Source: a virus. Taken from it: DNA of 64,000 nt. The stretch's first letter is position 1. Every line of letters starts with the position of its first letter. Of this stretch, positions 1-38,238 are shown piece by piece. The notes below the pieces were generated by a model, which saw only the letters and a program-made list of their open reading frames with translations, had not been told where the DNA came from and ran no database searches. Location of the stretch: the IMG/VR virus record IMGVR_UViG_3300010396_000037, one strand, 5' to 3'. Position numbers and translations under genes: made by a program.

Positions 1-870
1 CCTGATACGTCACCTTTCAAGTTCTTGATTGATAAACAAGGTAAGACTTTCTATAATGGTAAGTTTGGCGCTCGTGTTAAGACCATTCGTTTGCGCGGAC
101 AATTGTCACAGGGTCTGGCGCTGCCAATCAATTCATTTCATTTGGTTGATTTGGGTGGTGATATAACTGCTAACCTGGATATCTGGAAATATGATCCGCC
201 ACCACCTGCTGAATTGGCAGGTAAGGTTGCAGGCAATTGGCCATCTTGGTTGCAGAAAACAGACCAAGAAAGGATTCAAAACATTGACCCATCTGAATTG
301 ACTGGAACTTATGCAGTTGAGGAGAAAATGGATGGTACATCTATGTCAGTGTGGATTGATGAACACGGAGTTCTAGGTGTTGGTACCAAGAGCATGTCTC
401 TGAAAATAGATGACGCAGTAAATGACGGCAATACGTATGTCCGCATGGCGCATGATAGCGGCATGTTGAAGTGGCTATCAACTCATGTTTTGCCTCAGGA
501 TGCTCCATTTGCTATTCAGGGTGAATTGTGTGGACCAGGGGTTCAAGGTAATCCTTACAAATTAGACCGAGCAGCTTTCTTTGCTTTCGACATTTTTGCA
601 CCACGCAAGGGAGGCAAATTGCCAGAAGGTGAACGTGATAATATTATTGAAGCAATGCAACTGGATGGAGTCAGAATCGACACGGTGCCATTCATTTGTT
701 ACTGCGATCTGGACGAAATTACAGGAAACAAGATAGAGTTTCTATTGGCAGAAGCTGATGATAAAAGTCTTGTTTCTGATGTTTCGCGTGAAGGAATAGT
801 GTTGAAGGACGTGGCTGACGGGAATAAATCTTTCAAATGTATTAGCAACAAATACCTTGAAAATCAATAA
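1..870 (+). CDS. ATP-dependent RNA ligase (Rnl2-like/DRB0094 family), 5'-truncated
   Basis: Motif I EKMDG, QGELCG, FAFDI, REGIV, SFKCISNKYL; N-terminal RLRGQLSQGL; frame open to window edge. Confidence 0.9.
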   Translation, partial: PDTSPFKFLIDKQGKTFYNGKFGARVKTIRLRGQLSQGLALPINSFHLVDLGGDITANLDIWKYDPPPPAELAGKVAGNWPSWLQKTDQERIQNIDPSELTGTYAVEEKMDGTSMSVWIDEHGVLGVGTKSMSLKIDDAVNDGNTYVRMAHDSGMLKWLSTHVLPQDAPFAIQGELCGPGVQGNPYKLDRAAFFAFDIFAPRKGGKLPEGERDNIIEAMQLDGVRIDTVPFICYCDLDEITGNKIEFLLAEADDKSLVSDVSREGIVLKDVADGNKSFKCISNKYLENQ

Positions 871-965: not shown

Positions 966-1940
966 ATGAATGTCACTGTTGAAAGTCTGCAAAAGGAAAT
1001 CCCGGAAAAGAAACTCGTGGGTAATGTAGCCTATGTTCTACAGGCACCATGGGATCAGCCGGATTTTGCCAAAGAAACATCTTTGGAGAAAAGGATCAAG
1101 TCAGCTGGCCTGGATTGGAGAGCGGAGTCCTCAACCCTGCACTACTTTAATAGTAAAGGAACTGCATTGGTCCCGGGACGTATGGCATTGTTCCGGTCCG
1201 ACAATGGAAAGTTTCTTGGAGCAGTTGGAGAGAATTACAAAGTCGTGCAACCCAAAGAAGTCATTGAGTTTTATGAGAACTTGATTGCCAACTTTGGGTT
1301 TGAAATGGAAGCGGCTGGTTCTTTCTCTGAAGGCAAAAGGATTTGGGCTCTGGCCAATACCAAGAACGTCATGACATTGGATGGGGATGAAAGCAAGATG
1401 TATCTTTTGCTCGCTACCTCCTTCGACGGAAGCATGGCAACTCATGTTCGACTGACTAGCATTCGAGTCGCGAGTGAAAGCAGTCTGAATGTTGCGGTGG
1501 ATGAAAAGATCCTCGCCAGAGATGTGATCAAAGTCATGCACAGCCAATCCTTTGATGCTGAAAAGGTCAAGCACCAACTCGCTATCGAGAAGCGGTGGGC
1601 CAAATTTCAGAAAACAGCGAAGAAGATGGTTGAGCATAAGATATCAGAAGACAAAGCGATAGAGTATCTGTCGAATGTCTATGATATCCATGAAGGTGTC
1701 AAGGGCGTGAGGCGGACTCGGTTCCTAAATGCAATGGAATTCAGTCTGAATGAAGCTCCTGGCGCCAACCTCGCAACCGCAAAAGGAACTCTATGGGGAG
1801 CAGTCAATGCGGTTAGCTTCGACATAGATCACAGGAAGCGTAGGAATGAAAACACGCGCGCGGAACTCGCCATGATTGGGTATGGTAACGCGACCAAGGA
1901 AAAGGCATGGAAGTTGGCTGAACGGCTCCTGGCGGCATAG
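966..1940 (+). CDS. DUF932 family protein
   Basis: PW..., GLDW, YKVVQPKEV, LLLATSFDGS, GTLWGAVNAV; AGGAG RBS. Confidence 0.88.
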   Translation: MNVTVESLQKEIPEKKLVGNVAYVLQAPWDQPDFAKETSLEKRIKSAGLDWRAESSTLHYFNSKGTALVPGRMALFRSDNGKFLGAVGENYKVVQPKEVIEFYENLIANFGFEMEAAGSFSEGKRIWALANTKNVMTLDGDESKMYLLLATSFDGSMATHVRLTSIRVASESSLNVAVDEKILARDVIKVMHSQSFDAEKVKHQLAIEKRWAKFQKTAKKMVEHKISEDKAIEYLSNVYDIHEGVKGVRRTRFLNAMEFSLNEAPGANLATAKGTLWGAVNAVSFDIDHRKRRNENTRAELAMIGYGNATKEKAWKLAERLLAA

Positions 1941-3818: not shown

Positions 3819-4781
3819 ATGAGTGCTGAAATCGACATGAGTAATGGTAAGGCCAATGTTGCTTACATCAATGAGACTCCTTGGCATGGTCTGGGTCAGT
3901 CTCTGACTCCGGGTGCTGCTCTGGAAATCTGGGCTGAACAGGCTGGTCAGAACTGGGAAGCCAAGCGTGCGGCTCTGCGTTACACGGCTGGCAAGGACAC
4001 GGTCAGTATCCCGAACCGCAAGGCTCTGTATCGTTCTGACACGCATGCTTTCCTGGGTATGGTGGCCGATGGCTACAAGATCGTGCAGCCGAAGGAAGTC
4101 CTGGAGTTCTACCGTGACCTGATCAGTGACTTCGGTTTCGAGATGGAGACGGCTGGTTGCTTGTTCGGTGGCAAGCGCGTCTGGGCTTTGGCCAACTGCA
4201 AGAAGGCTGTTGCTCTAAAGGGTAATGATGACGTCAACTTGTATCTGCTGCTTGCCACGTCCTTTGATGGCTCCATGAGCACGCAGGCTCGTCTGACCGG
4301 TGTTCGCGTGGTCTGCAACAACACGCTTGAACTGGCGACTGCTTCTAATGGTGTGGGTAACAATGTGGTACGCGTGTATCACACGGCCAGCTTCAATTCG
4401 GATGCGGTCAAGAAACAGCTGGACATCGACAATCGCTGGCAGAACTTCTGCGACACGGCAAGCAAAATGCAAAATCGTGAAGTCAGCAAGGCTGAAGTGA
4501 TTGACTTCCTGACCAAGTTGTACAAGATCAATCCCAACAGTTCTGAACTGATCAAGAACCGTTTCTTGGCCCGTATGGAGCACTCGCTGTTCAATGCTCC
4601 GGGTGCCCAGAAGACTGGCTCGGCTGGTACCCTCTGGGGTGTCTTGAATGCGGTGACCTATGATGTTGATCACAAGGCCACGCGCGTCGCTGACTACCGG
4701 ATGGCCAATGGCATGATGGGTGCGGGTAGCTTGCTGAAGCAGCAGGCTTGGAAGGAAGCTGAAATGGCTCTGGCTGCATGA
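3819..4781 (+). CDS. DUF932 family protein (second paralog)
   Basis: TPWHGLG, YKIVQPKEV, RVVCNNTL, GTLWGVLNAV; own promoter 3736-3777. Confidence 0.92.
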   Translation: MSAEIDMSNGKANVAYINETPWHGLGQSLTPGAALEIWAEQAGQNWEAKRAALRYTAGKDTVSIPNRKALYRSDTHAFLGMVADGYKIVQPKEVLEFYRDLISDFGFEMETAGCLFGGKRVWALANCKKAVALKGNDDVNLYLLLATSFDGSMSTQARLTGVRVVCNNTLELATASNGVGNNVVRVYHTASFNSDAVKKQLDIDNRWQNFCDTASKMQNREVSKAEVIDFLTKLYKINPNSSELIKNRFLARMEHSLFNAPGAQKTGSAGTLWGVLNAVTYDVDHKATRVADYRMANGMMGAGSLLKQQAWKEAEMALAA

Positions 4782-9447: not shown

Positions 9448-9547
9448 ATTTGCGTTGTTGGTTGAAAAGTAGGTGGCGCGAAATTCGTACAGAGAAGGTC
9501 CAGCAGCCAATTGGGATAAGCTCTGGCAACGCAAATTATTGTAGAAT

Positions 9548-9945
9548 GGTAGTAAAGGTGTTGTTTGGCGGCAGGTTGGACGCGGGTTCGATTCCCGCCC
9601 ACTCCACCAAAAGCAAATTAGTCACGAAAGGGGAAGGTAAGATCACCGTATCGTAAGAGAAATCCTAGACCCGGTGACGCTAGTTTGTTTTTGATGGGGT
9701 GGACATGGCTTCGACAGTCTGGACTGAGGACAAGGCTCTACCCAAGCGTTGAATGTAGGCTTGTAAATCTGAACACTCAAACGTCAAATGCAAACGATAA
9801 TGCATACGATCTAGCCCTAGCGGCCTGATCCCAAGAGTGGCTCCGTCTTGGTTCCTCAACGGAGCATTGAATTAAAGAACCCACAGGGTGATGCATTAAA
9901 TCCTGCGGATGAGAGGAAAGACTGACGCCTCTGAAAAGGTCAGTC
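9548..9945 (+). ncRNA. ssrA: tmRNA, circularly permuted (acceptor piece ends CCA 9609; coding piece starts 9696; tag ANDNAYDLALAA at 9790-9828)
   Basis: T-arm plus CCACTCC-ACCA precedes GGGGTGGACATGGCTTCGAC; G3:U70 pair; tag ORF ends LAA-stop; several pseudoknots; outer ends approximate. Confidence 0.92.
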
Positions 9946-25260: not shown

Positions 25261-27900
25261 ATGACAACTCCTGTTTTTACAGATACTATCCTATACACAG
25301 TAAACAATGTTTCATATCCCAGATTTGAAGAAGCTTTGGCTGCGTCTCAAAGTCTTTCATTGCCTGTAACTATTACAGCATCTGGTTCTCTTGTTATTTC
25401 AGATGCAACATCTAATACAACTCCTCCAGCGAACACAACACCAGACCCACCTGTAGCCAATGTGTCATCCAACGTGGTTGCCAGTGTGCATGTGGTTTGT
25501 TCTAACCAAACTGTTACTTTCACGGATCAATCAGTAAGTGCTCTGCCTTTGACATCTGTTACAGTTGGATACGGATTGGGCGGAACTGCTAAGGAAATCG
25601 GAGCTGGTGGTTCAGCTACAAAAGATTATCCAAATCCAGGAACATTTAATGCTGCACTTGTATCCACAGACAGTAGTGGCGTCAAGAGCACAGTTCTTTT
25701 CCGTGTAACAGTGCCCGGAACGAGTGATAATGTTTACACGGCAGGTGCTCCAACATCTCCACCTACTGGTAACACTAGCAGCAACACAAGTAGCAATACT
25801 GGCGGCACGAGTGGTTCCCCTCCAGTGGCGTCATTTAAGATCACCCAAGATGGTTTGACAGTGACGTTGACCGACACCAGCACTGACAAGGACGCCGACA
25901 TTGTTGACGTGGCTGTGAATTGGGGCGATGGCGCATTGGATCCAGATATTGGCAAGGGCGCAGTTGTTTCTCATACATATGCCCAGAATGGATCCTACAC
26001 TATCTTAGAATCAGTTGCAGATTCAACAGGAAACACCAGCAAGGTATCTAAGGATGTATATGCAGTTCCTGCTAATACACCTGCGACAGCTGACTTTGAT
26101 GTGGTGGTAAACGGACTTGATATCGTAGTGACCGATAAGTCACAACGTGGTAGTGTTCCATTGGCTACCGCCGTATGGCAATGGGGAGATTTCCCTGGTT
26201 CAAGCCCAACAGTGCCGCCAGGTGGTACAATGCGACATGGCTTTGATGTTGCTGGTACTTACCCAGTCATGATGCGAATTTCAGACGCTTCTGGCAGTGG
26301 TGCTGCTGTAACTAAACAAGTCACTGTATCTGGTGTGCGTGCGGCTCCATTAAACATTCCATCACCTGACTCTGTTACAGTGGTGTGGACTCCAGTAGGT
26401 GGTACTCCAATCACCATCAATCCAAAATTGGGCGAATGCGTACCATTCGTTGCTGGAGACCCAACCAAAGGTGGCGCCAAATATTATGCAGATGGTCTAT
26501 GTGTAACTCTAGAAAACATGTACGCAGGGACCACTGGTGACTTGTCTGGTCATTTCACTATCACTGCCGCTGGTGTTACCGTATTCGATGGTGACCTGAC
26601 TCTGTATGTTGGAGCTGGTTCACGACCATTCTGGTTACGAACACCAACTTTGGTAACAGACCCAGATCTATCATTGTTCCCTGAATTGGTTGATGCTCCA
26701 ACTGCCAGCATGTGGAATTCATACCATGCTGCTGATAATAGTCCAACTGGTTATGGTTGCGATATCTCAGCTATGGGTACTGCTGGTGAACATGCGCATT
26801 TAGGACAACCATATCCTCAGTGGGATGCTTGCCATCGTACCAACCCTAGTGATCAAAATACCGAAGTTGTACTTGGCATGGCTAACGCTTCACGTGTATG
26901 GAGTTCGCATTGGCGTGATATCACTACTGGTCAGATGATTGATGTTACACAGTATCCTAAGATCAGCACCTTGTCAGCATTCCGAGGTATCCAAGGCAAT
27001 CCAATTGCACCATATACAACTAGCAATCCAACACAGTTGGGACAAGCGCAAGCTCATGCTACCAACTTCTGTGCATATGCTGCAGTGGTATTCGGTACTG
27101 AATATCACAAAGAGGAGTTGGCGATGTGGAGTAATTACTACTCCGCATTGTGGCAGAACTATGCTTATCGTTTACCTGCTGGTTGTGTAAGTGTACAGCA
27201 TGGTATCGTGCGTGGTAAAGGCCGTGGACTGACTGCATTGGTGTATGCTGCAAAATACTCCAGCAATCCAGCTTACTTTGACAAATGGGTTCTGGCTATT
27301 GCAGCTGATTACAATGCATTCTATCCAGCGCAACAAGGTTTTGCTATTGATCAGACAGCCAAAGGACAAGGATATCCTCATCAGGAATATGCTCCATGGC
27401 AACAACAAATCCTGATCACGGGTATTGGATTGGCTATGTTGGCTGGTTACAGTGAATTTCAACCGACCTTGGATTATTTCGCTACAGTTGCATTTGACGC
27501 GATCCTAAGCGATGGTGCTCAACCTGTATTGCAACACGAGTTTGCTACTGTGTACAATTCAGGATTGATACGCGCAGATGGTTCAGGTCCTGTCTCTGAC
27601 TGGCGTGAAAGTATCAACTTGGCTGGTACTTATGATGCTGCTGTTGCTGCCGCATTGTTGTGTCCAGAAGACTCTGCCGCATTGCAGTCTGCTAAAGGTG
27701 GTGGACAACCAGGTAACTTTATTGGATCACCAACTTCTCCAGTGGGGTATCCTGCTATCGCACGTCCATCATATGCGTTGTTGTTCCGATTTGCTACTGA
27801 CCAAGTGCGCGCACAAGCAGCTGGTCAAAAATTTGAACAATATGATGTAGCTGATTATTCAACCAACCCAAAGTATGGATACAAGTTCATCACTAAGTAA
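25261..27900 (+). CDS. PKD-repeat protein with helical C-terminal domain (possible glycan-active virion protein)
   Basis: FTD.S, WGDG, HTYA..G.Y PKD motifs; APWQ C-domain; late promoter. Confidence 0.8.
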   Translation: MTTPVFTDTILYTVNNVSYPRFEEALAASQSLSLPVTITASGSLVISDATSNTTPPANTTPDPPVANVSSNVVASVHVVCSNQTVTFTDQSVSALPLTSVTVGYGLGGTAKEIGAGGSATKDYPNPGTFNAALVSTDSSGVKSTVLFRVTVPGTSDNVYTAGAPTSPPTGNTSSNTSSNTGGTSGSPPVASFKITQDGLTVTLTDTSTDKDADIVDVAVNWGDGALDPDIGKGAVVSHTYAQNGSYTILESVADSTGNTSKVSKDVYAVPANTPATADFDVVVNGLDIVVTDKSQRGSVPLATAVWQWGDFPGSSPTVPPGGTMRHGFDVAGTYPVMMRISDASGSGAAVTKQVTVSGVRAAPLNIPSPDSVTVVWTPVGGTPITINPKLGECVPFVAGDPTKGGAKYYADGLCVTLENMYAGTTGDLSGHFTITAAGVTVFDGDLTLYVGAGSRPFWLRTPTLVTDPDLSLFPELVDAPTASMWNSYHAADNSPTGYGCDISAMGTAGEHAHLGQPYPQWDACHRTNPSDQNTEVVLGMANASRVWSSHWRDITTGQMIDVTQYPKISTLSAFRGIQGNPIAPYTTSNPTQLGQAQAHATNFCAYAAVVFGTEYHKEELAMWSNYYSALWQNYAYRLPAGCVSVQHGIVRGKGRGLTALVYAAKYSSNPAYFDKWVLAIAADYNAFYPAQQGFAIDQTAKGQGYPHQEYAPWQQQILITGIGLAMLAGYSEFQPTLDYFATVAFDAILSDGAQPVLQHEFATVYNSGLIRADGSGPVSDWRESINLAGTYDAAVAAALLCPEDSAALQSAKGGGQPGNFIGSPTSPVGYPAIARPSYALLFRFATDQVRAQAAGQKFEQYDVADYSTNPKYGYKFITK

Positions 27901-35767: not shown

Positions 35768-35895
35768 CCCAGAATCGCCGACTAATAGGCAGGATCTGAA
35801 GCAATTTGATGTGTAAACCACTAATGAAGTTAGGCAAATCCTGCTTCTGACCTGTGGGTATCGGAGATGAGGTTCATCCGAACATTTTTGTTGTA

Positions 35896-36107
35896 TGGTG
35901 AGCTTTGTAGGCTAAATATGCTGATGAACGCGGAGACTTAGCGGCTTGATTCTACTCGGGTGTGGCAGCATTGTAGTGCACTATGATGCAACGATTGATC
36001 ATCGTGACTGTTCGTGGGTTTGACTCCCACCATCGGCTTCTACAAAGATAGCAGTTACATGGAGTGACTGAGGGAATAACACGAGGCGCAATTGCGCGCC
36101 TACACCA
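35896..36107 (+). ncRNA. scaffolded tRNA-like RNA, copy 1
   Basis: GGTG-AG-stem-[tRNA-like 35920-36037]-stem-AACACG-AGGCG/CGCCT-A-CACC. Confidence 0.7.
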
Positions 36108-36123
36108 AAAGGAAAATAAATTT

Positions 36124-36197
36124 GCCCGGTTAGTTTAATAGTAAAATGCCTCTCTTACACGGAGGATTCGGCGGAGCGTAACCGTCACTGGGTACCA
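36124..36197 (+). tRNA. tRNA-Val(TAC)
   Basis: Cloverleaf, CCA. Confidence 0.88.
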
Positions 36198-36310
36198 ATT
36201 TTGTACATGGAGCATATATGATTACTACAGGTTGGGTCGCTAGAGCGATCATCAGTATGACTCCTGTTGTTTTAATTGGAATTTTGATTGTCTATGTTGT
36301 TTGTAATTTT

Positions 36311-36485
36311 TAGGTGAGTTCTTGAGGTAACAGAATTGACTGTGGGGGTGTAGCTCAACGTTAGAGCACTGAATGCAAGGAGTGTGGCGCGCGCGATCTC
36401 CTTTGGTTCAAGGATGGTGGTTTAACTCCGCCCATCCCCTGCTCAAGAAAACTTAACACGAGGCGTCAACACACGCCTACACCTA
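36311..36485 (+). ncRNA. scaffolded tRNA-like RNA, copy 2
   Basis: Same scaffold around tRNA-like 36344-36439. Confidence 0.7.
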
Positions 36486-36495
36486 GAAAGTTTAT

Positions 36496-36607
36496 GCGGT
36501 TGTCGGGTAAGCTGGTATCCCTCTGCATCATTTGATGCAGGCTTTAATTCCAATAAACGGTCCGTGAGGGAATTGAAGTGGTGGTTCGAATCCATCTGAC
36601 CGCGCCA
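36496..36607 (+). ncRNA. tRNA-like RNA with closed anticodon arm and ~40-nt V-arm
   Basis: Acceptor, D arm, TTCGAAT T-loop, GCCA. Confidence 0.7.
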
Positions 36608-36610
36608 AAT

Positions 36611-36687
36611 TGAATTGTTAGTTCAAAGGAAATCAAAGAACACTTCCGCGGAGGGAGGATGTGAGGTTCGACTCCTTGCACAATTCA
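36611..36687 (+). ncRNA. degenerate tRNA-like RNA (5-nt anticodon loop, no CCA)
   Basis: TGAATTGT/ACAATTCA acceptor, D and T arms. Confidence 0.6.
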
Positions 36688-37575: not shown

Positions 37576-38238
37576 ATGGAATGTAAATATTGCAACAAGT
37601 CGTTTATCAATAAACAAAAACTAGCAAGTCATGAGAGCAACTCTGCTTGCAATCCTAACAAAACGATTTACTGTGCCCACTGCAAGTTTTGCGGTAGAAA
37701 TTGCTCTCATCTAAATGGCTTACGTTCTCACGAAATCACTTGTATAAACAATCCAAACAGAGTTAAGGGTAAGAGAGGCGATGGTTGGTACAAAGTAGAT
37801 AAAACTGCATTTTCTAAAAAATTGAGCGAACGTTACAGAAGTCATGAAACGAACAAATTGATAAGCGCGACATGTTTAGCAAAAGCGAAATCTGGTAATT
37901 GGCATCATGGCGCCGGCAAAAGTAAAAAATACACATACAAAGGATACAAATTCGACTCTACTTGGGAAGTACAACTTGCTATTTACTGGGATTCGAAAGA
38001 AATAAATTGGATTAGAAATTCCGAAACATTTCCTTACTTCTGGAACAAAAAGAACAGATCTTACACTCCCGATTTTCTTTTACCAAACTCAAATACGTAC
38101 ATAGAAGTCAAAGGATACAAAACAGAAAGAGACATTGCAAAATGGTCTTCTTTCCCTGGTAGACTTCAAATATTTGATGAAAGGATTTTGAAGGATATGG
38201 GAGTTCTAAAAATTTCTACGTCTGTAGCTCAAAGGTAG
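37576..38238 (+). CDS. Zn-finger plus PD-(D/E)XK (TnsA-like) free-standing endonuclease
   Basis: Two C2HC fingers; DSTWE, YTPDF, YIEVKGY; late promoter TAAATA at 37565. Confidence 0.85.
   Translation: MECKYCNKSFINKQKLASHESNSACNPNKTIYCAHCKFCGRNCSHLNGLRSHEITCINNPNRVKGKRGDGWYKVDKTAFSKKLSERYRSHETNKLISATCLAKAKSGNWHHGAGKSKKYTYKGYKFDSTWEVQLAIYWDSKEINWIRNSETFPYFWNKKNRSYTPDFLLPNSNTYIEVKGYKTERDIAKWSSFPGRLQIFDERILKDMGVLKISTSVAQR

What the first reader, a model, noticed from the sequence alone, without database searches (positions are those of the whole stretch)
35896..36485. Repeated three-way-junction RNA scaffold carrying different tRNA-like passengers
Seen: two elements (35896-36107, 36311-36485) share GGTG-AG-[stem]-passenger-[stem']-...TAACACG-AGGCG-loop-CGCCT-A-CACC. 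Stems covary (TGGTG/CACCA vs TAGGTG/CACCTA; CTTTGTAG/CTACAAAG vs TTCTTGAG/CTCAAGAA) while the AACACG junction is invariant. Each passenger is a different CCA-less cloverleaf with a 7-bp acceptor, D arm and T arm: one has a TTCTAC loop and a giant branched V-arm, the other a ~45-nt anticodon-position arm. I recognise no known ribozyme or riboswitch core. Inference: a new modular ncRNA class (protein-binding or catalytic carrier plus variable tRNA-mimic effector), conceptually like Y RNAs.
Basis: partly seen in the sequence, partly recalled or inferred. Interest (0 to 1): 0.85.

Follow-up and report, generated by a model that had tools for sequence, protein, structure and literature searches.

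The report
Phage RNA platform carrying tRNA mimics
The two look-alike elements are real members of a large, apparently undescribed family of phage non-coding RNAs, in which a conserved three- or four-helix junction holds a variable insert that is usually the top half of a tRNA unable to decode; what the RNA does is still unknown.

Summary
Observation confirmed. Both elements (35896-36107, 36311-36485) fold as described. They share closing stem P1 (GGUG/CACC), AG, an 8-bp stem B enclosing the insert, UAACACG, hairpin P4 (AGGCGN-6 nt-N'CGCCU) and A.

I parsed 41 distinct members of the UAACACG type from soil metagenomes, IMG/VR and cultured phages of Erwinia, Salmonella, Klebsiella, Serratia and Yersinia. 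More than 120 further IMG/VR loci carry the same P4 hairpin with other junction variants. One variant lies between Q and the holin gene in E. coli prophages (337 of 5,426 genomes).

P1 and stem B covary strongly: 95% of cells paired, and 137 compensatory cells against 38 in shuffles. Most members have a fourth hairpin, so the core is usually a four-way junction. Natural circular permutations occur.

Inserts are mostly tRNA top halves, in normal or permuted order, and only 4 of 41 are called tRNAs. No Rfam 15 family matches and no paper I could search describes it. It lacks the YrlA Ro60-binding motif.

Best guess (about 0.4): a stable RNA that works as a whole, as an adaptor or decoy presenting a tRNA mimic. 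Main rival (about 0.2): a new self-cleaving or 3'-end-defining motif.

The parts
35896..35900 (+). Element 1, P1 5' strand (UGGUG)
   Evidence: Pairs with 36103-36107 in the MFE fold. This helix covaries across the family.
35901..35902 (+). Element 1, junction dinucleotide AG (J1)
   Evidence: AG in all 41 parsed members, but the parse itself required AG here. In the MAFFT alignment A2 of those members the two columns are invariant.
35903..35911 (+). Element 1, stem B 5' strand (CUUUGUAG, plus G)
   Evidence: Pairs with 36039-36047. Stem B is 8 bp in 37 of 41 members.
35912..36038 (+). Element 1 cargo: 8-nt leader, then a CCA-less tRNA-like body. Acceptor 35920-35926 with 36031-36037; T arm 36014-36030; 6-nt 'anticodon' loop; two-hairpin variable region.
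   Evidence: Fold. ARAGORN finds no tRNA. Rfam gives only a tRNA-Sec hit at 14.7 bits, E 9.4. The orthologue L044:1908-2166 keeps the acceptor, D and T arms but replaces the middle.
36039..36047 (+). Element 1, stem B 3' strand (UCUACAAAG)
36048..36076 (+). Element 1, AUAG + hairpin D (36052-36058 with 36064-36070) + AGGGAA linker
   Evidence: Fold. The equivalent G(U/G)AGC-hairpin-GAGCAAC segment is present in most members.
36077..36083 (+). Element 1, junction heptamer UAACACG (J2)
   Evidence: The leading U was outside the metagenome search pattern, yet it is present in all true hits and absent from the three chance hits.
36084..36101 (+). Element 1, hairpin P4 (AGGCGC-AAUUGC-GCGCCU)
   Evidence: This hairpin is shared by all junction variants found; note that the search patterns required it.
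36102..36107 (+). Element 1, single A (J3) and P1 3' strand (CACCA)
36311..36318 (+). Element 2, P1 5' strand (UAGGUG) and AG
   Evidence: Fold. P1 can extend to 10 bp.
36319..36326 (+). Element 2, stem B 5' strand (UUCUUGAG)
   Evidence: Pairs with 36442-36449. Two compensatory changes relative to the orthologue L044:2281-2444.
36327..36441 (+). Element 2 cargo: leader hairpin 36330-36343 abutting the acceptor; tRNA-like body 36344-36440 with a long closed arm in place of the anticodon loop; then G36441.
   Evidence: Rfam tRNA 41.9 bits with a 32-nt insert. Fold. ARAGORN finds nothing. A leader hairpin of the same kind occurs in distant members such as L078.
36442..36453 (+). Element 2, stem B 3' strand (CUCAAGAA) and 4-nt linker AACU; no hairpin D
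   Evidence: The orthologue L044b has hairpin D here.
36454..36485 (+). Element 2, UAACACG, hairpin P4 (AGGCGU-CAACAC-ACGCCU), A, and P1 3' strand (CACCUA)

Best explanation
Each element is a gene for a stable, non-decoding structured RNA of a widespread phage family. SHOWN: the constant part is a small junction 'platform'. Its order is closing helix P1, AG, an 8-bp helix B, usually a hairpin D, a conserved A/C-rich strand ending in UAACACG, a sequence-conserved hairpin P4, and a single A. Helix B carries a variable insert, bracketed by a G on each side. In most members the insert is the top half of a tRNA (acceptor-like stem, T arm, D-like arm) without a usable anticodon loop and without CCA. 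INFERRED: the tRNA-like part is not released as a tRNA. Its 3' end runs into helix B after only 1-2 nt, a leader hairpin abuts its 5' end, and P1 plus B clamp both ends, so the RNA acts as one rigid unit. MOST LIKELY MECHANISM (inference, about 0.4): an adaptor or decoy RNA in the manner of Y RNAs. The platform is a fixed docking or folding module. Its partner would be a conserved host factor, because small phages of unrelated families and host phyla carry the RNA and I saw no shared phage protein. The platform holds a tRNA elbow/acceptor mimic at a set distance, to engage or sequester a tRNA-binding factor during infection.
For: Family and structure. Homologues come from soil metagenomes, IMG/VR and cultured phages. 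I parsed 41 distinct members. On a MAFFT alignment of 39 full-length members, 95.2% of cells are paired against 75.3% in shuffles (0 of 500 shuffles as high). There are 137 compensatory cells against 38, and the covariation score is 0.481 against 0.117; sliding the partners gives at most 0.108. 42 of 46 real cores have a P1+AG+B partner with at least 13 paired positions, against 24 of 920 shuffled upstream regions.

Geometry. Stem B is 8 bp in 37 of 41 members, and the insert starts and ends with G in 37 of 41.

Non-decoding inserts. ARAGORN calls only 4 of 41 inserts tRNAs, two of them with impossible anticodons. The window's inserts lack CCA while their neighbours encode it. A leader hairpin directly abuts the acceptor in many predicted folds. 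Orthologues keep the platform plus the acceptor, D and T arms, while the anticodon and variable region is replaced by indels.

Platform independent of cargo. Compact members carry only a hairpin (L043, L050). Some inserts are permuted tRNA-like bodies joined through the anticodon stem, as in YrlA (L048b, L063).

Expression context. Members are co-oriented with tRNA arrays, often 2-6 nt after a tRNA's CCA. In phiEa104 a promoter-like site (10 of 12 matches, extended -10) ends about 12 nt before P1.

No dedicated phage partner seen. Carriers range from 40-kb P22-like prophages to 380-kb jumbo phages, in Proteobacteria and Actinobacteria. A DRB0094-type RNA ligase, present in this window, is absent from 7 other carriers.
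Against: No binding partner is identified and no expression or end-mapping data could be obtained. The Ro60-binding motif of Y RNAs is absent, so the analogy is architectural only. Conserved junction nucleotides, natural circular permutation and the constant 1-2 nt spacing after the tRNA-like 3' end fit a ribozyme or processing element equally well. The strict conservation of P4 is partly an artefact, because every collection search required it. The members were picked with a requirement for 4 paired positions in P1 and 6 in B, which inflates the percentage paired, though not the compensatory variety. The P4 loop shows no complementarity to the insert above chance, so no intramolecular docking is demonstrated.
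Confidence: 0.4

Rival explanations
1. The platform is a new small self-cleaving ribozyme, or a motif that otherwise defines an RNA end. It would cut next to the tRNA-like body or at the P4/P1 junction, as HDV-like theta ribozymes do 3' of phage tRNAs.
For: It is a three- or four-way junction with short conserved junction strands (AG...ACG; A) and variable peripheral helices. It tolerates inserts of 15-177 nt in one helix. Natural circular permutations exist: in L042, P1 is closed by a loop and B is open, and the GAACAACG group has a tRNA-like body directly upstream. The platform always starts 1-2 nt after the tRNA-like acceptor 3' end. The inserts lack CCA, as do 95.5% of theta-associated tRNAs (PMC10879173). 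Distribution in phage intergenic regions and polycistronic tRNA arrays is typical of small ribozymes.
Against: No Rfam ribozyme model matches. The junction sequence differs between subfamilies (UAACACG, UAAAACG, UAAGAACG, GAACAACG), which is unusual for a catalytic core. The associated bodies are almost never decoders (4 of 41), so tRNA maturation is not the obvious purpose. Compact members have nothing to release. The DRB0094 ligase that is enriched with theta ribozymes does not co-occur: 0 of 7 other carriers have it.
Confidence: 0.22
2. It is a passive structural module of polycistronic transcripts. A compact, nuclease-resistant fold would protect or punctuate tRNA-array and late-operon transcripts, being recognised or blocked by RNase E, RNase P, RNase III or 3' exonucleases, with no trans-acting role.
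For: It sits inside tRNA arrays, directly after a tRNA's CCA. In CUS-3 it lies downstream of a terminator-like hairpin in the leader between gene Q and the holin gene. The clamped ends and the GNRA-capped hairpin D in many members suggest a very stable fold.
Against: A mere clamp would not need a sequence-conserved P4, fixed junction strands and an exactly 8-bp helix B across phyla. The tRNA-like top half is itself conserved between orthologues.
Confidence: 0.15
3. It is a Y RNA proper, that is, a ligand of a Ro60/Rsr protein, as proposed for other phage scaffolds in this scan.
For: It is modular with a tRNA-like domain. Some inserts have exactly the YrlA topology, with a closed acceptor and attachment through the anticodon stem (L048b, L063).
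Against: The motif GNCGAAN0-1G (PMC4201824) is absent; the 5' strand reads (G/N)GAGAG or GGUGAG. The Rfam YrlA model does not hit any element. None of about 30 Pfam-scanned ORFs in the window, which include every ORF of 500 aa or more, has a TROVE domain. Carriers include 40-54-kb phages of well-known gene content (CUS-3, Faunus).
Confidence: 0.05
4. It is a ligand-sensing aptamer (riboswitch-like).
For: It has a small conserved junction with an A/C-rich strand. A few compact members lie just upstream of an ORF (L043, L045, L050).
Against: Most members are stand-alone genes in tRNA arrays with no expression platform and no gene to regulate. No Rfam riboswitch model matches.
Confidence: 0.05
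5. They are decaying tRNA genes with fortuitous flanking repeats; the similarity reflects only a recent local duplication.
For: The two copies lie 200 nt apart and their 30-nt 3' cores are identical apart from the hairpin loop.
Against: There are hundreds of homologues in unrelated phages, with compensatory changes.
Confidence: 0.01

Closest known systems
Bacterial and phage Y RNAs of the YrlA type (Rfam RF02553; Chen et al. 2014, PMC4201824)
   Same: A modular small RNA whose 5' and 3' ends pair in a stem. It carries a tRNA-like domain with T and D arms that cannot decode. Some members here even share the permuted topology (closed acceptor, joined via the anticodon stem). It occurs in phages.
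   Different: No GNCGAAN0-1G Ro60-binding motif, no hit to the YrlA model, and no TROVE gene found nearby. The constant part here is a three- or four-way junction with a conserved hairpin P4, not a bulged helix. Most inserts are attached through the acceptor ends.
HDV-like theta ribozymes next to phage tRNAs (Kienbeck et al. 2024, PMC10879173)
   Same: A conserved small RNA motif placed immediately 3' of CCA-less tRNA(-like) genes in Caudoviricetes, very abundant and long overlooked.
   Different: No nested double pseudoknot and no HDV-like model hit. Here the motif usually encloses the tRNA-like body, which is almost never a decoder. Self-cleavage is untested.
Hammerhead and twister ribozymes (from my own knowledge of these families)
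   Same: A three-way (optionally four-way) junction, short conserved junction strands, helices that tolerate large inserts, natural circular permutations, and frequent occurrence in phage or prophage DNA.
   Different: None of their core sequences is present (CUGAUGA...GAAA; the twister loop and pseudoknot nucleotides). The Rfam models do not match, and the P4 loop is not conserved except for its last C.
Phage T4 stable RNAs species 1 and 2 (rnaC, rnaD) in the T4 tRNA cluster (from my own knowledge)
   Same: Stable non-decoding RNAs of unknown function, encoded among phage tRNA genes and processed with them.
   Different: Not homologous by sequence: model R1 finds nothing in T4 or T5. Their reported architecture has tRNA-like free ends rather than an enclosing junction.
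HK022 put RNA (PMC9378689)
   Same: A phage RNA placed just downstream of a promoter that acts without a phage protein, on a universally conserved host machine.
   Different: put is a V-shaped pair of stem-loops with a short triplex and open ends. It has no closed junction and no tRNA-like part.

Membership tests
Y RNA / YrlA (Ro60-binding) | Conserved Ro60/Rsr-binding motif GNCGAAN0-1G near the 5' end (PMC4201824) | tested here: not met
   The 5' strands read UGGUGAG and UAGGUGAG in the window, and NGAGAG or NGUGAG in 41 members. No CGAA is present.
Y RNA / YrlA (Ro60-binding) | Match to the Rfam YrlA covariance model RF02553 | tested here: not met
   No hit on any element at E up to 10 (window) or up to 1-5 (loci); the only weak YrlA hits lie on ordinary tRNAs.
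Y RNA / YrlA (Ro60-binding) | Encoded next to a Ro60/TROVE-domain gene | tested here: not met
   None of about 30 ORFs scanned against Pfam, including every ORF of 500 aa or more, has a TROVE domain. Only 64 kb of the phage is visible, so a distant gene is not excluded.
Y RNA / YrlA (Ro60-binding) | tRNA-like domain with T arm and D arm that does not decode | tested here: met
Transfer RNA (functional decoder) | Cloverleaf with a 7-nt anticodon loop and a free (encoded or added) CCA 3' end | tested here: not met
   Element 2 matches RF00005 only with a 32-nt insert replacing the anticodon loop. Element 1 has a 6-nt loop on a G-U-rich stem. Neither has CCA, and both 3' ends continue into stem B after 2 nt. 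ARAGORN finds nothing.
Known small self-cleaving ribozymes (hammerhead, twister, twister-sister, pistol, hatchet, HDV-like, hairpin) | Match to the family covariance model or its conserved core nucleotides | tested here: not met
   No such family among matches up to E 10 on the window region, or up to E 1-5 on 25 loci, including compact members without large inserts.
Known small self-cleaving ribozymes (hammerhead, twister, twister-sister, pistol, hatchet, HDV-like, hairpin) | Site-specific self-scission | not testable with these tools
   Needs in vitro transcription or end mapping.
Riboswitch classes in Rfam 15 | Match to an aptamer model and position in a 5' leader with an expression platform | tested here: not met
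   No model match. Most members are inside tRNA arrays.
The new family itself (working definition) | P1 ending in G, then AG, an 8-bp stem B, insert, stem B', optional hairpin D, UAACACG, AGGCGN-loop-N'CGCCU, A, and P1' starting with C | tested here: met
   Both window elements meet every feature. Model R1 scores 37-38 bits on them and 21-42 bits on 45 or more hits in fetched metagenome and IMG/VR loci.

The most novel reading that the evidence does not exclude
The platform is a previously unrecognised class of catalytic RNA, self-cleaving or otherwise end-defining. It would be widespread in phages of several bacterial phyla and in E. coli prophages, and it would process or tether tRNA-shaped RNAs independently of the host 3'-end machinery.
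Probability: 0.2. Interest if true: 0.92.

Novelty: categorically new. Interest (0 to 1): 0.78.

Why it matters
If this holds, one of the commoner structured RNAs of tailed phages has gone unannotated. It is present in well-studied Erwinia, Salmonella, Klebsiella, Serratia and Yersinia phages, and as a variant in about 6% of complete E. coli genomes; where anything is annotated there, it is 'tRNA-OTHER' or 'tRNA-Undet'. The family combines a very conserved junction with swappable tRNA-shaped inserts. It therefore bears on why phages carry so many tRNA-like genes that cannot decode: as decoys for tRNA-targeting defences, as hijackers of tRNA-processing enzymes, or as a new ribozyme. Because culturable phage-host pairs carry it, the question is directly testable. 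The platform may also prove a natural, insert-tolerant RNA scaffold for engineering.

Tried and rejected
1. Rfam 15 was scanned at gathering and at permissive E-value thresholds on the window region and on 25 loci. Only tRNA hits were returned.

2. Y RNA reading: the motif and the model are absent and I found no TROVE gene.

3. HK022 put-like antiterminator: the architecture differs.

4. The exact 21-base pattern found nothing in IMG/VR. A looser pattern requiring CCUACACC gave 29 chance hits, none confirmed by the model. The reason is that most IMG/VR members have ACUC rather than ACACC.

5. Relatives fetched through gp32 and through the 74-aa upstream ORF gave no element-bearing contig.

6. 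The genome-contig scan gave 2 hits. One is chance (L051). The other is a 3.6-kb contig of an Oscillospiraceae MAG that scores 30.8 bits (L052); I did not follow it up.

7. T4, T5 and Felix O1 have no member. The weak Felix O1 hit lies inside coding sequence.

8. Kissing or pseudoknot pairing between the P4 loop or UAACACG and the insert or hairpin D: complementarity equals that of shuffles.

9. Link to the DRB0094-type RNA ligase. This ligase is enriched with theta ribozymes (PMC10879173) and is present at window 25-867 (TIGR02306, E 1e-32). It is absent from 7 other carrier phages, so no association.

10. The literature search for the core sequence and for descriptions of such an RNA returned only chance primer matches. 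The catalogue of 10,006 unnamed phage structured-RNA candidates (PMC10690425) could contain it, but its supplementary files are not held.

Full report
THE WINDOW. It comes from a tailed phage. It encodes a gp32-like ssDNA-binding protein, tail-fibre-type proteins, a DRB0094-type RNA ligase and two DUF932 proteins. It also carries a permuted tmRNA gene. About 30 tRNA genes lie between 31 and 44.5 kb on the + strand. No close relative is in GenBank phages, and no whole genome is held.

THE OBSERVATION. Both elements are as described. The shared parts, in order:
- closing helix P1 (GGUG/CACC, extended by covarying pairs);
- AG;
- helix B (CUUUGUAG/CUACAAAG against UUCUUGAG/CUCAAGAA) enclosing the passenger;
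- UAACACG;
- hairpin P4 (AGGCGN, 6-nt loop, N'CGCCU);
- a single A;
- the P1 3' strand.
The 11-mer AACACGAGGCG occurs only at these two places in the window. A scaffold-only covariance model (R1) finds only these two copies.

Passenger 2 hits the Rfam tRNA model (41.9 bits), but a 32-nt closed arm replaces the anticodon loop. Passenger 1 has an acceptor, a short D arm and a T arm, with a 6-nt loop and a two-hairpin variable region. Neither passenger encodes CCA, unlike the neighbouring tRNAs. Element 1 has an extra hairpin (36052-36070) before UAACACG, so it is a four-way junction.

HOMOLOGUES. An exact-pattern scan of JGI metagenome contigs returned 10 contigs, 7 of them true by model R1.
- L044 and L046 come from related phages with the same tRNA order and hold orthologues of both window elements. 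The platform and the acceptor, D and T arms are conserved. The anticodon and variable region is replaced by indels, and stem B of element 2 shows two compensatory changes.
- L048 holds two tandem members. One has a cloverleaf-shaped insert that is not tRNA-like. The other has a permuted tRNA-like body, with the T arm first, a closed acceptor, and attachment through the anticodon stem.
- L043 and L050 are compact, with only a hairpin in stem B.
- L042 is a natural circular permutation. The tRNA-like body comes first, followed by stem B 3' strand, hairpin D, UAACACG, P4, A, P1 closed by a loop, AG and stem B 5' strand.

Dropping the requirement for the ACACC tail gave 41 IMG/VR loci, about 36 of them true. 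In most, P1 is GAG/CUC rather than GUG/CAC.

BLAST against GenBank phages places members in the following:
- Kolesnikvirus (Erwinia phiEa21-4 and phiEa104, Salmonella SE5 and others);
- a T5-like Erwinia phage (KEY);
- Chaseviridae (Faunus, pEa_SNUABM_27);
- Stephanstirmvirinae (Klebsiella KP13-26);
- jumbo phages (ChrisDB, Serratia 2050HW, Pectobacterium CBB, Yersinia fHe-Yen9-04).
In phiEa21-4 the insert is annotated 'tRNA-OTHER' and the element is the first gene of the tRNA array. A promoter-like site ends about 12 nt before P1, and a second one follows the element. T4, T5 and Felix O1 have no member.

FAMILY ANATOMY AND STATISTICS. In 41 distinct members:
- the P1 pair at the junction is always G-C; the next is A-U (29) or U-A (12); outer positions show 3-6 pair types;
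- the junction dinucleotide is always AG, though the parse required it (the two columns are also invariant in the MAFFT alignment);
- stem B positions 2-7 show 4-5 Watson-Crick pair types;
- stem B is 8 bp in 37 of 41, and the insert begins and ends with G in 37 of 41;
- most members have G(U/G)AGC-hairpin D-GAGCAAC before UAACACG, and hairpin D is often capped by a GNRA tetraloop.

On a MAFFT alignment of 39 full-length members (A2), the named structure gives 95.2% paired cells against 75.3% in shuffles. It gives 137 compensatory cells against 38, and a covariation score of 0.481 against 0.117. In each case 0 of 500 shuffles reach the observed value. Slid partners give a score of at most 0.108.

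One caveat applies. The members were picked requiring 4 paired positions in P1 and 6 in B. As a control, 42 of 46 real cores have at least 13 paired P1+B positions, against 24 of 920 shuffled upstream regions. G-U pairs and co-orientation with tRNA genes fix the + strand as the RNA strand.

A WIDER SUPERFAMILY. The same P4 hairpin, flanked by ...ACG and A, occurs with other junction strands:
- UAAAACG in P22-like E. coli prophages (CUS-3, IME10, Huey), phage Jgk1 and Acinetobacter phage SR;
- UAAGAACG in actinophages (Kumotta, next to an HNH gene);
- GAACAACG in many IMG/VR contigs, mostly in the permuted layout with a tRNA-like body directly upstream.
In CUS-3 the element lies between Q and the holin gene, after a terminator-like hairpin. 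That region is present in 337 of 5,426 complete E. coli genomes with nothing annotated. All these searches required the P4 sequence, so its invariance is partly by construction.

WHAT IT IS NOT. No Rfam 15 family other than tRNA matches any member, including compact ones. It is not a Ro60-type Y RNA by the published criteria. put RNA is architecturally different. I found no paper that describes it. It might sit unnamed among the 10,006 candidates of PMC10690425, which I could not check.

The inserts are not decoders: ARAGORN of 41, two of them with 2-base 'anticodons'. I found no loop-insert pairing above chance. The DRB0094 ligase, which is enriched in phages with theta ribozymes (PMC10879173) and present in this window, is absent from 7 other carriers.

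HOW IT MOST LIKELY WORKS. Shown: a conserved, covarying junction platform with a fixed 8-bp arm that carries, in most members, a tRNA top half lacking both a usable anticodon loop and CCA.

Inferred:
- The body is not released, because its 3' end enters stem B after 1-2 nt and a hairpin abuts its 5' end, so the RNA acts as one unit.
- Carriers range from 40-kb temperate phages to jumbo phages in two bacterial phyla, and I saw no shared accessory protein. Any partner is therefore probably a conserved host component.
- I rate an adaptor or decoy role at about 0.4: the platform as docking or folding module, the tRNA mimic as bait for a tRNA-binding factor.
- I rate a new self-cleaving or end-defining motif at about 0.2. 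Circular permutation, junction conservation and placement right after tRNA-like 3' ends favour it. Variation of the junction between subfamilies and the non-decoding inserts count against it.
- A passive stability or punctuation element gets about 0.15. A riboswitch and a true Y RNA get about 0.05 each.

VERDICT. This is a widespread RNA family that appears to be undescribed, and culturable phage-host pairs are available to test its function.

Noticed in passing
window 36124-36197: A tRNA between the two elements is found by Rfam (45.5 bits) but missed by ARAGORN. By eye its anticodon loop reads CUUACAC (UAC, Val), it has an odd T arm (GGCGG-AGCGUAA-CCGUC), and it has an encoded CCA.
   Followed up: no
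window 36496-36607 and 36612-36686: Two more non-canonical tRNA-like genes lie right after element 2. The first has a closed anticodon hairpin, a long variable arm and GCCA. Only weak Rfam tRNA/tRNA-Sec scores (about 15 bits).
   Followed up: no
window 35840-35890 and L044:1866-1905: The approximately 45 nt just upstream of element 1 (GACCUGUGGGUAUCGG...GGUUCA.CCGAAC) are conserved in the related phage contigs L044 and L046. They may belong to another small structured RNA or to a processing signal.
   Followed up: no
window 9517-9919: A permuted (two-piece type) tmRNA gene: Rfam RF04321 at 106.5 bits; ARAGORN tag ANDNAYDLALAA.
   Followed up: no
window 25-867: An RNA ligase of the DRB0094 family (TIGR02306, E 1e-32), cut by the window start. 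This family is reported as 140-fold enriched in phages with tRNA-associated theta ribozymes (PMC10879173). It did not co-occur with the RNA family studied here.
   Followed up: yes
window 966-1937 and 3819-4778; L042:2110-3180: The window has two DUF932 genes. In metagenome contig L042 the permuted family member with its tRNA-like body lies about 70 nt upstream of an ORF whose N-terminus looks like DUF932 by eye (not scanned).
   Followed up: partly
window 37576-38235: An ORF inside the tRNA array with an N-terminal C2H2-like zinc finger and a weak phage endonuclease I match (sub-threshold). It is probably a homing-type nuclease.
   Followed up: no
L095 (CUS-3, CP000711 about 25500-25800) and 337 E. 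coli genomes: The UAAAACG variant of the platform lies in the leader between Q and the holin gene of P22-like prophages. Nothing is annotated under the match in the RefSeq genomes listed, among them the E. coli type strain ATCC 11775.
   Followed up: partly
L099:78-203 (Escherichia phage Jgk1): A sub-threshold permuted-tmRNA hit (34.7 bits against a cut-off of 47) lies about 300 nt upstream of that phage's family member.
   Followed up: no
L052 (Oscillospiraceae MAG contig, 2664-2726): A probable family member (R1 30.8 bits) on a 3.6-kb contig of a gut Firmicutes MAG. This hints that the family reaches beyond phages of Proteobacteria and Actinobacteria.
   Followed up: no
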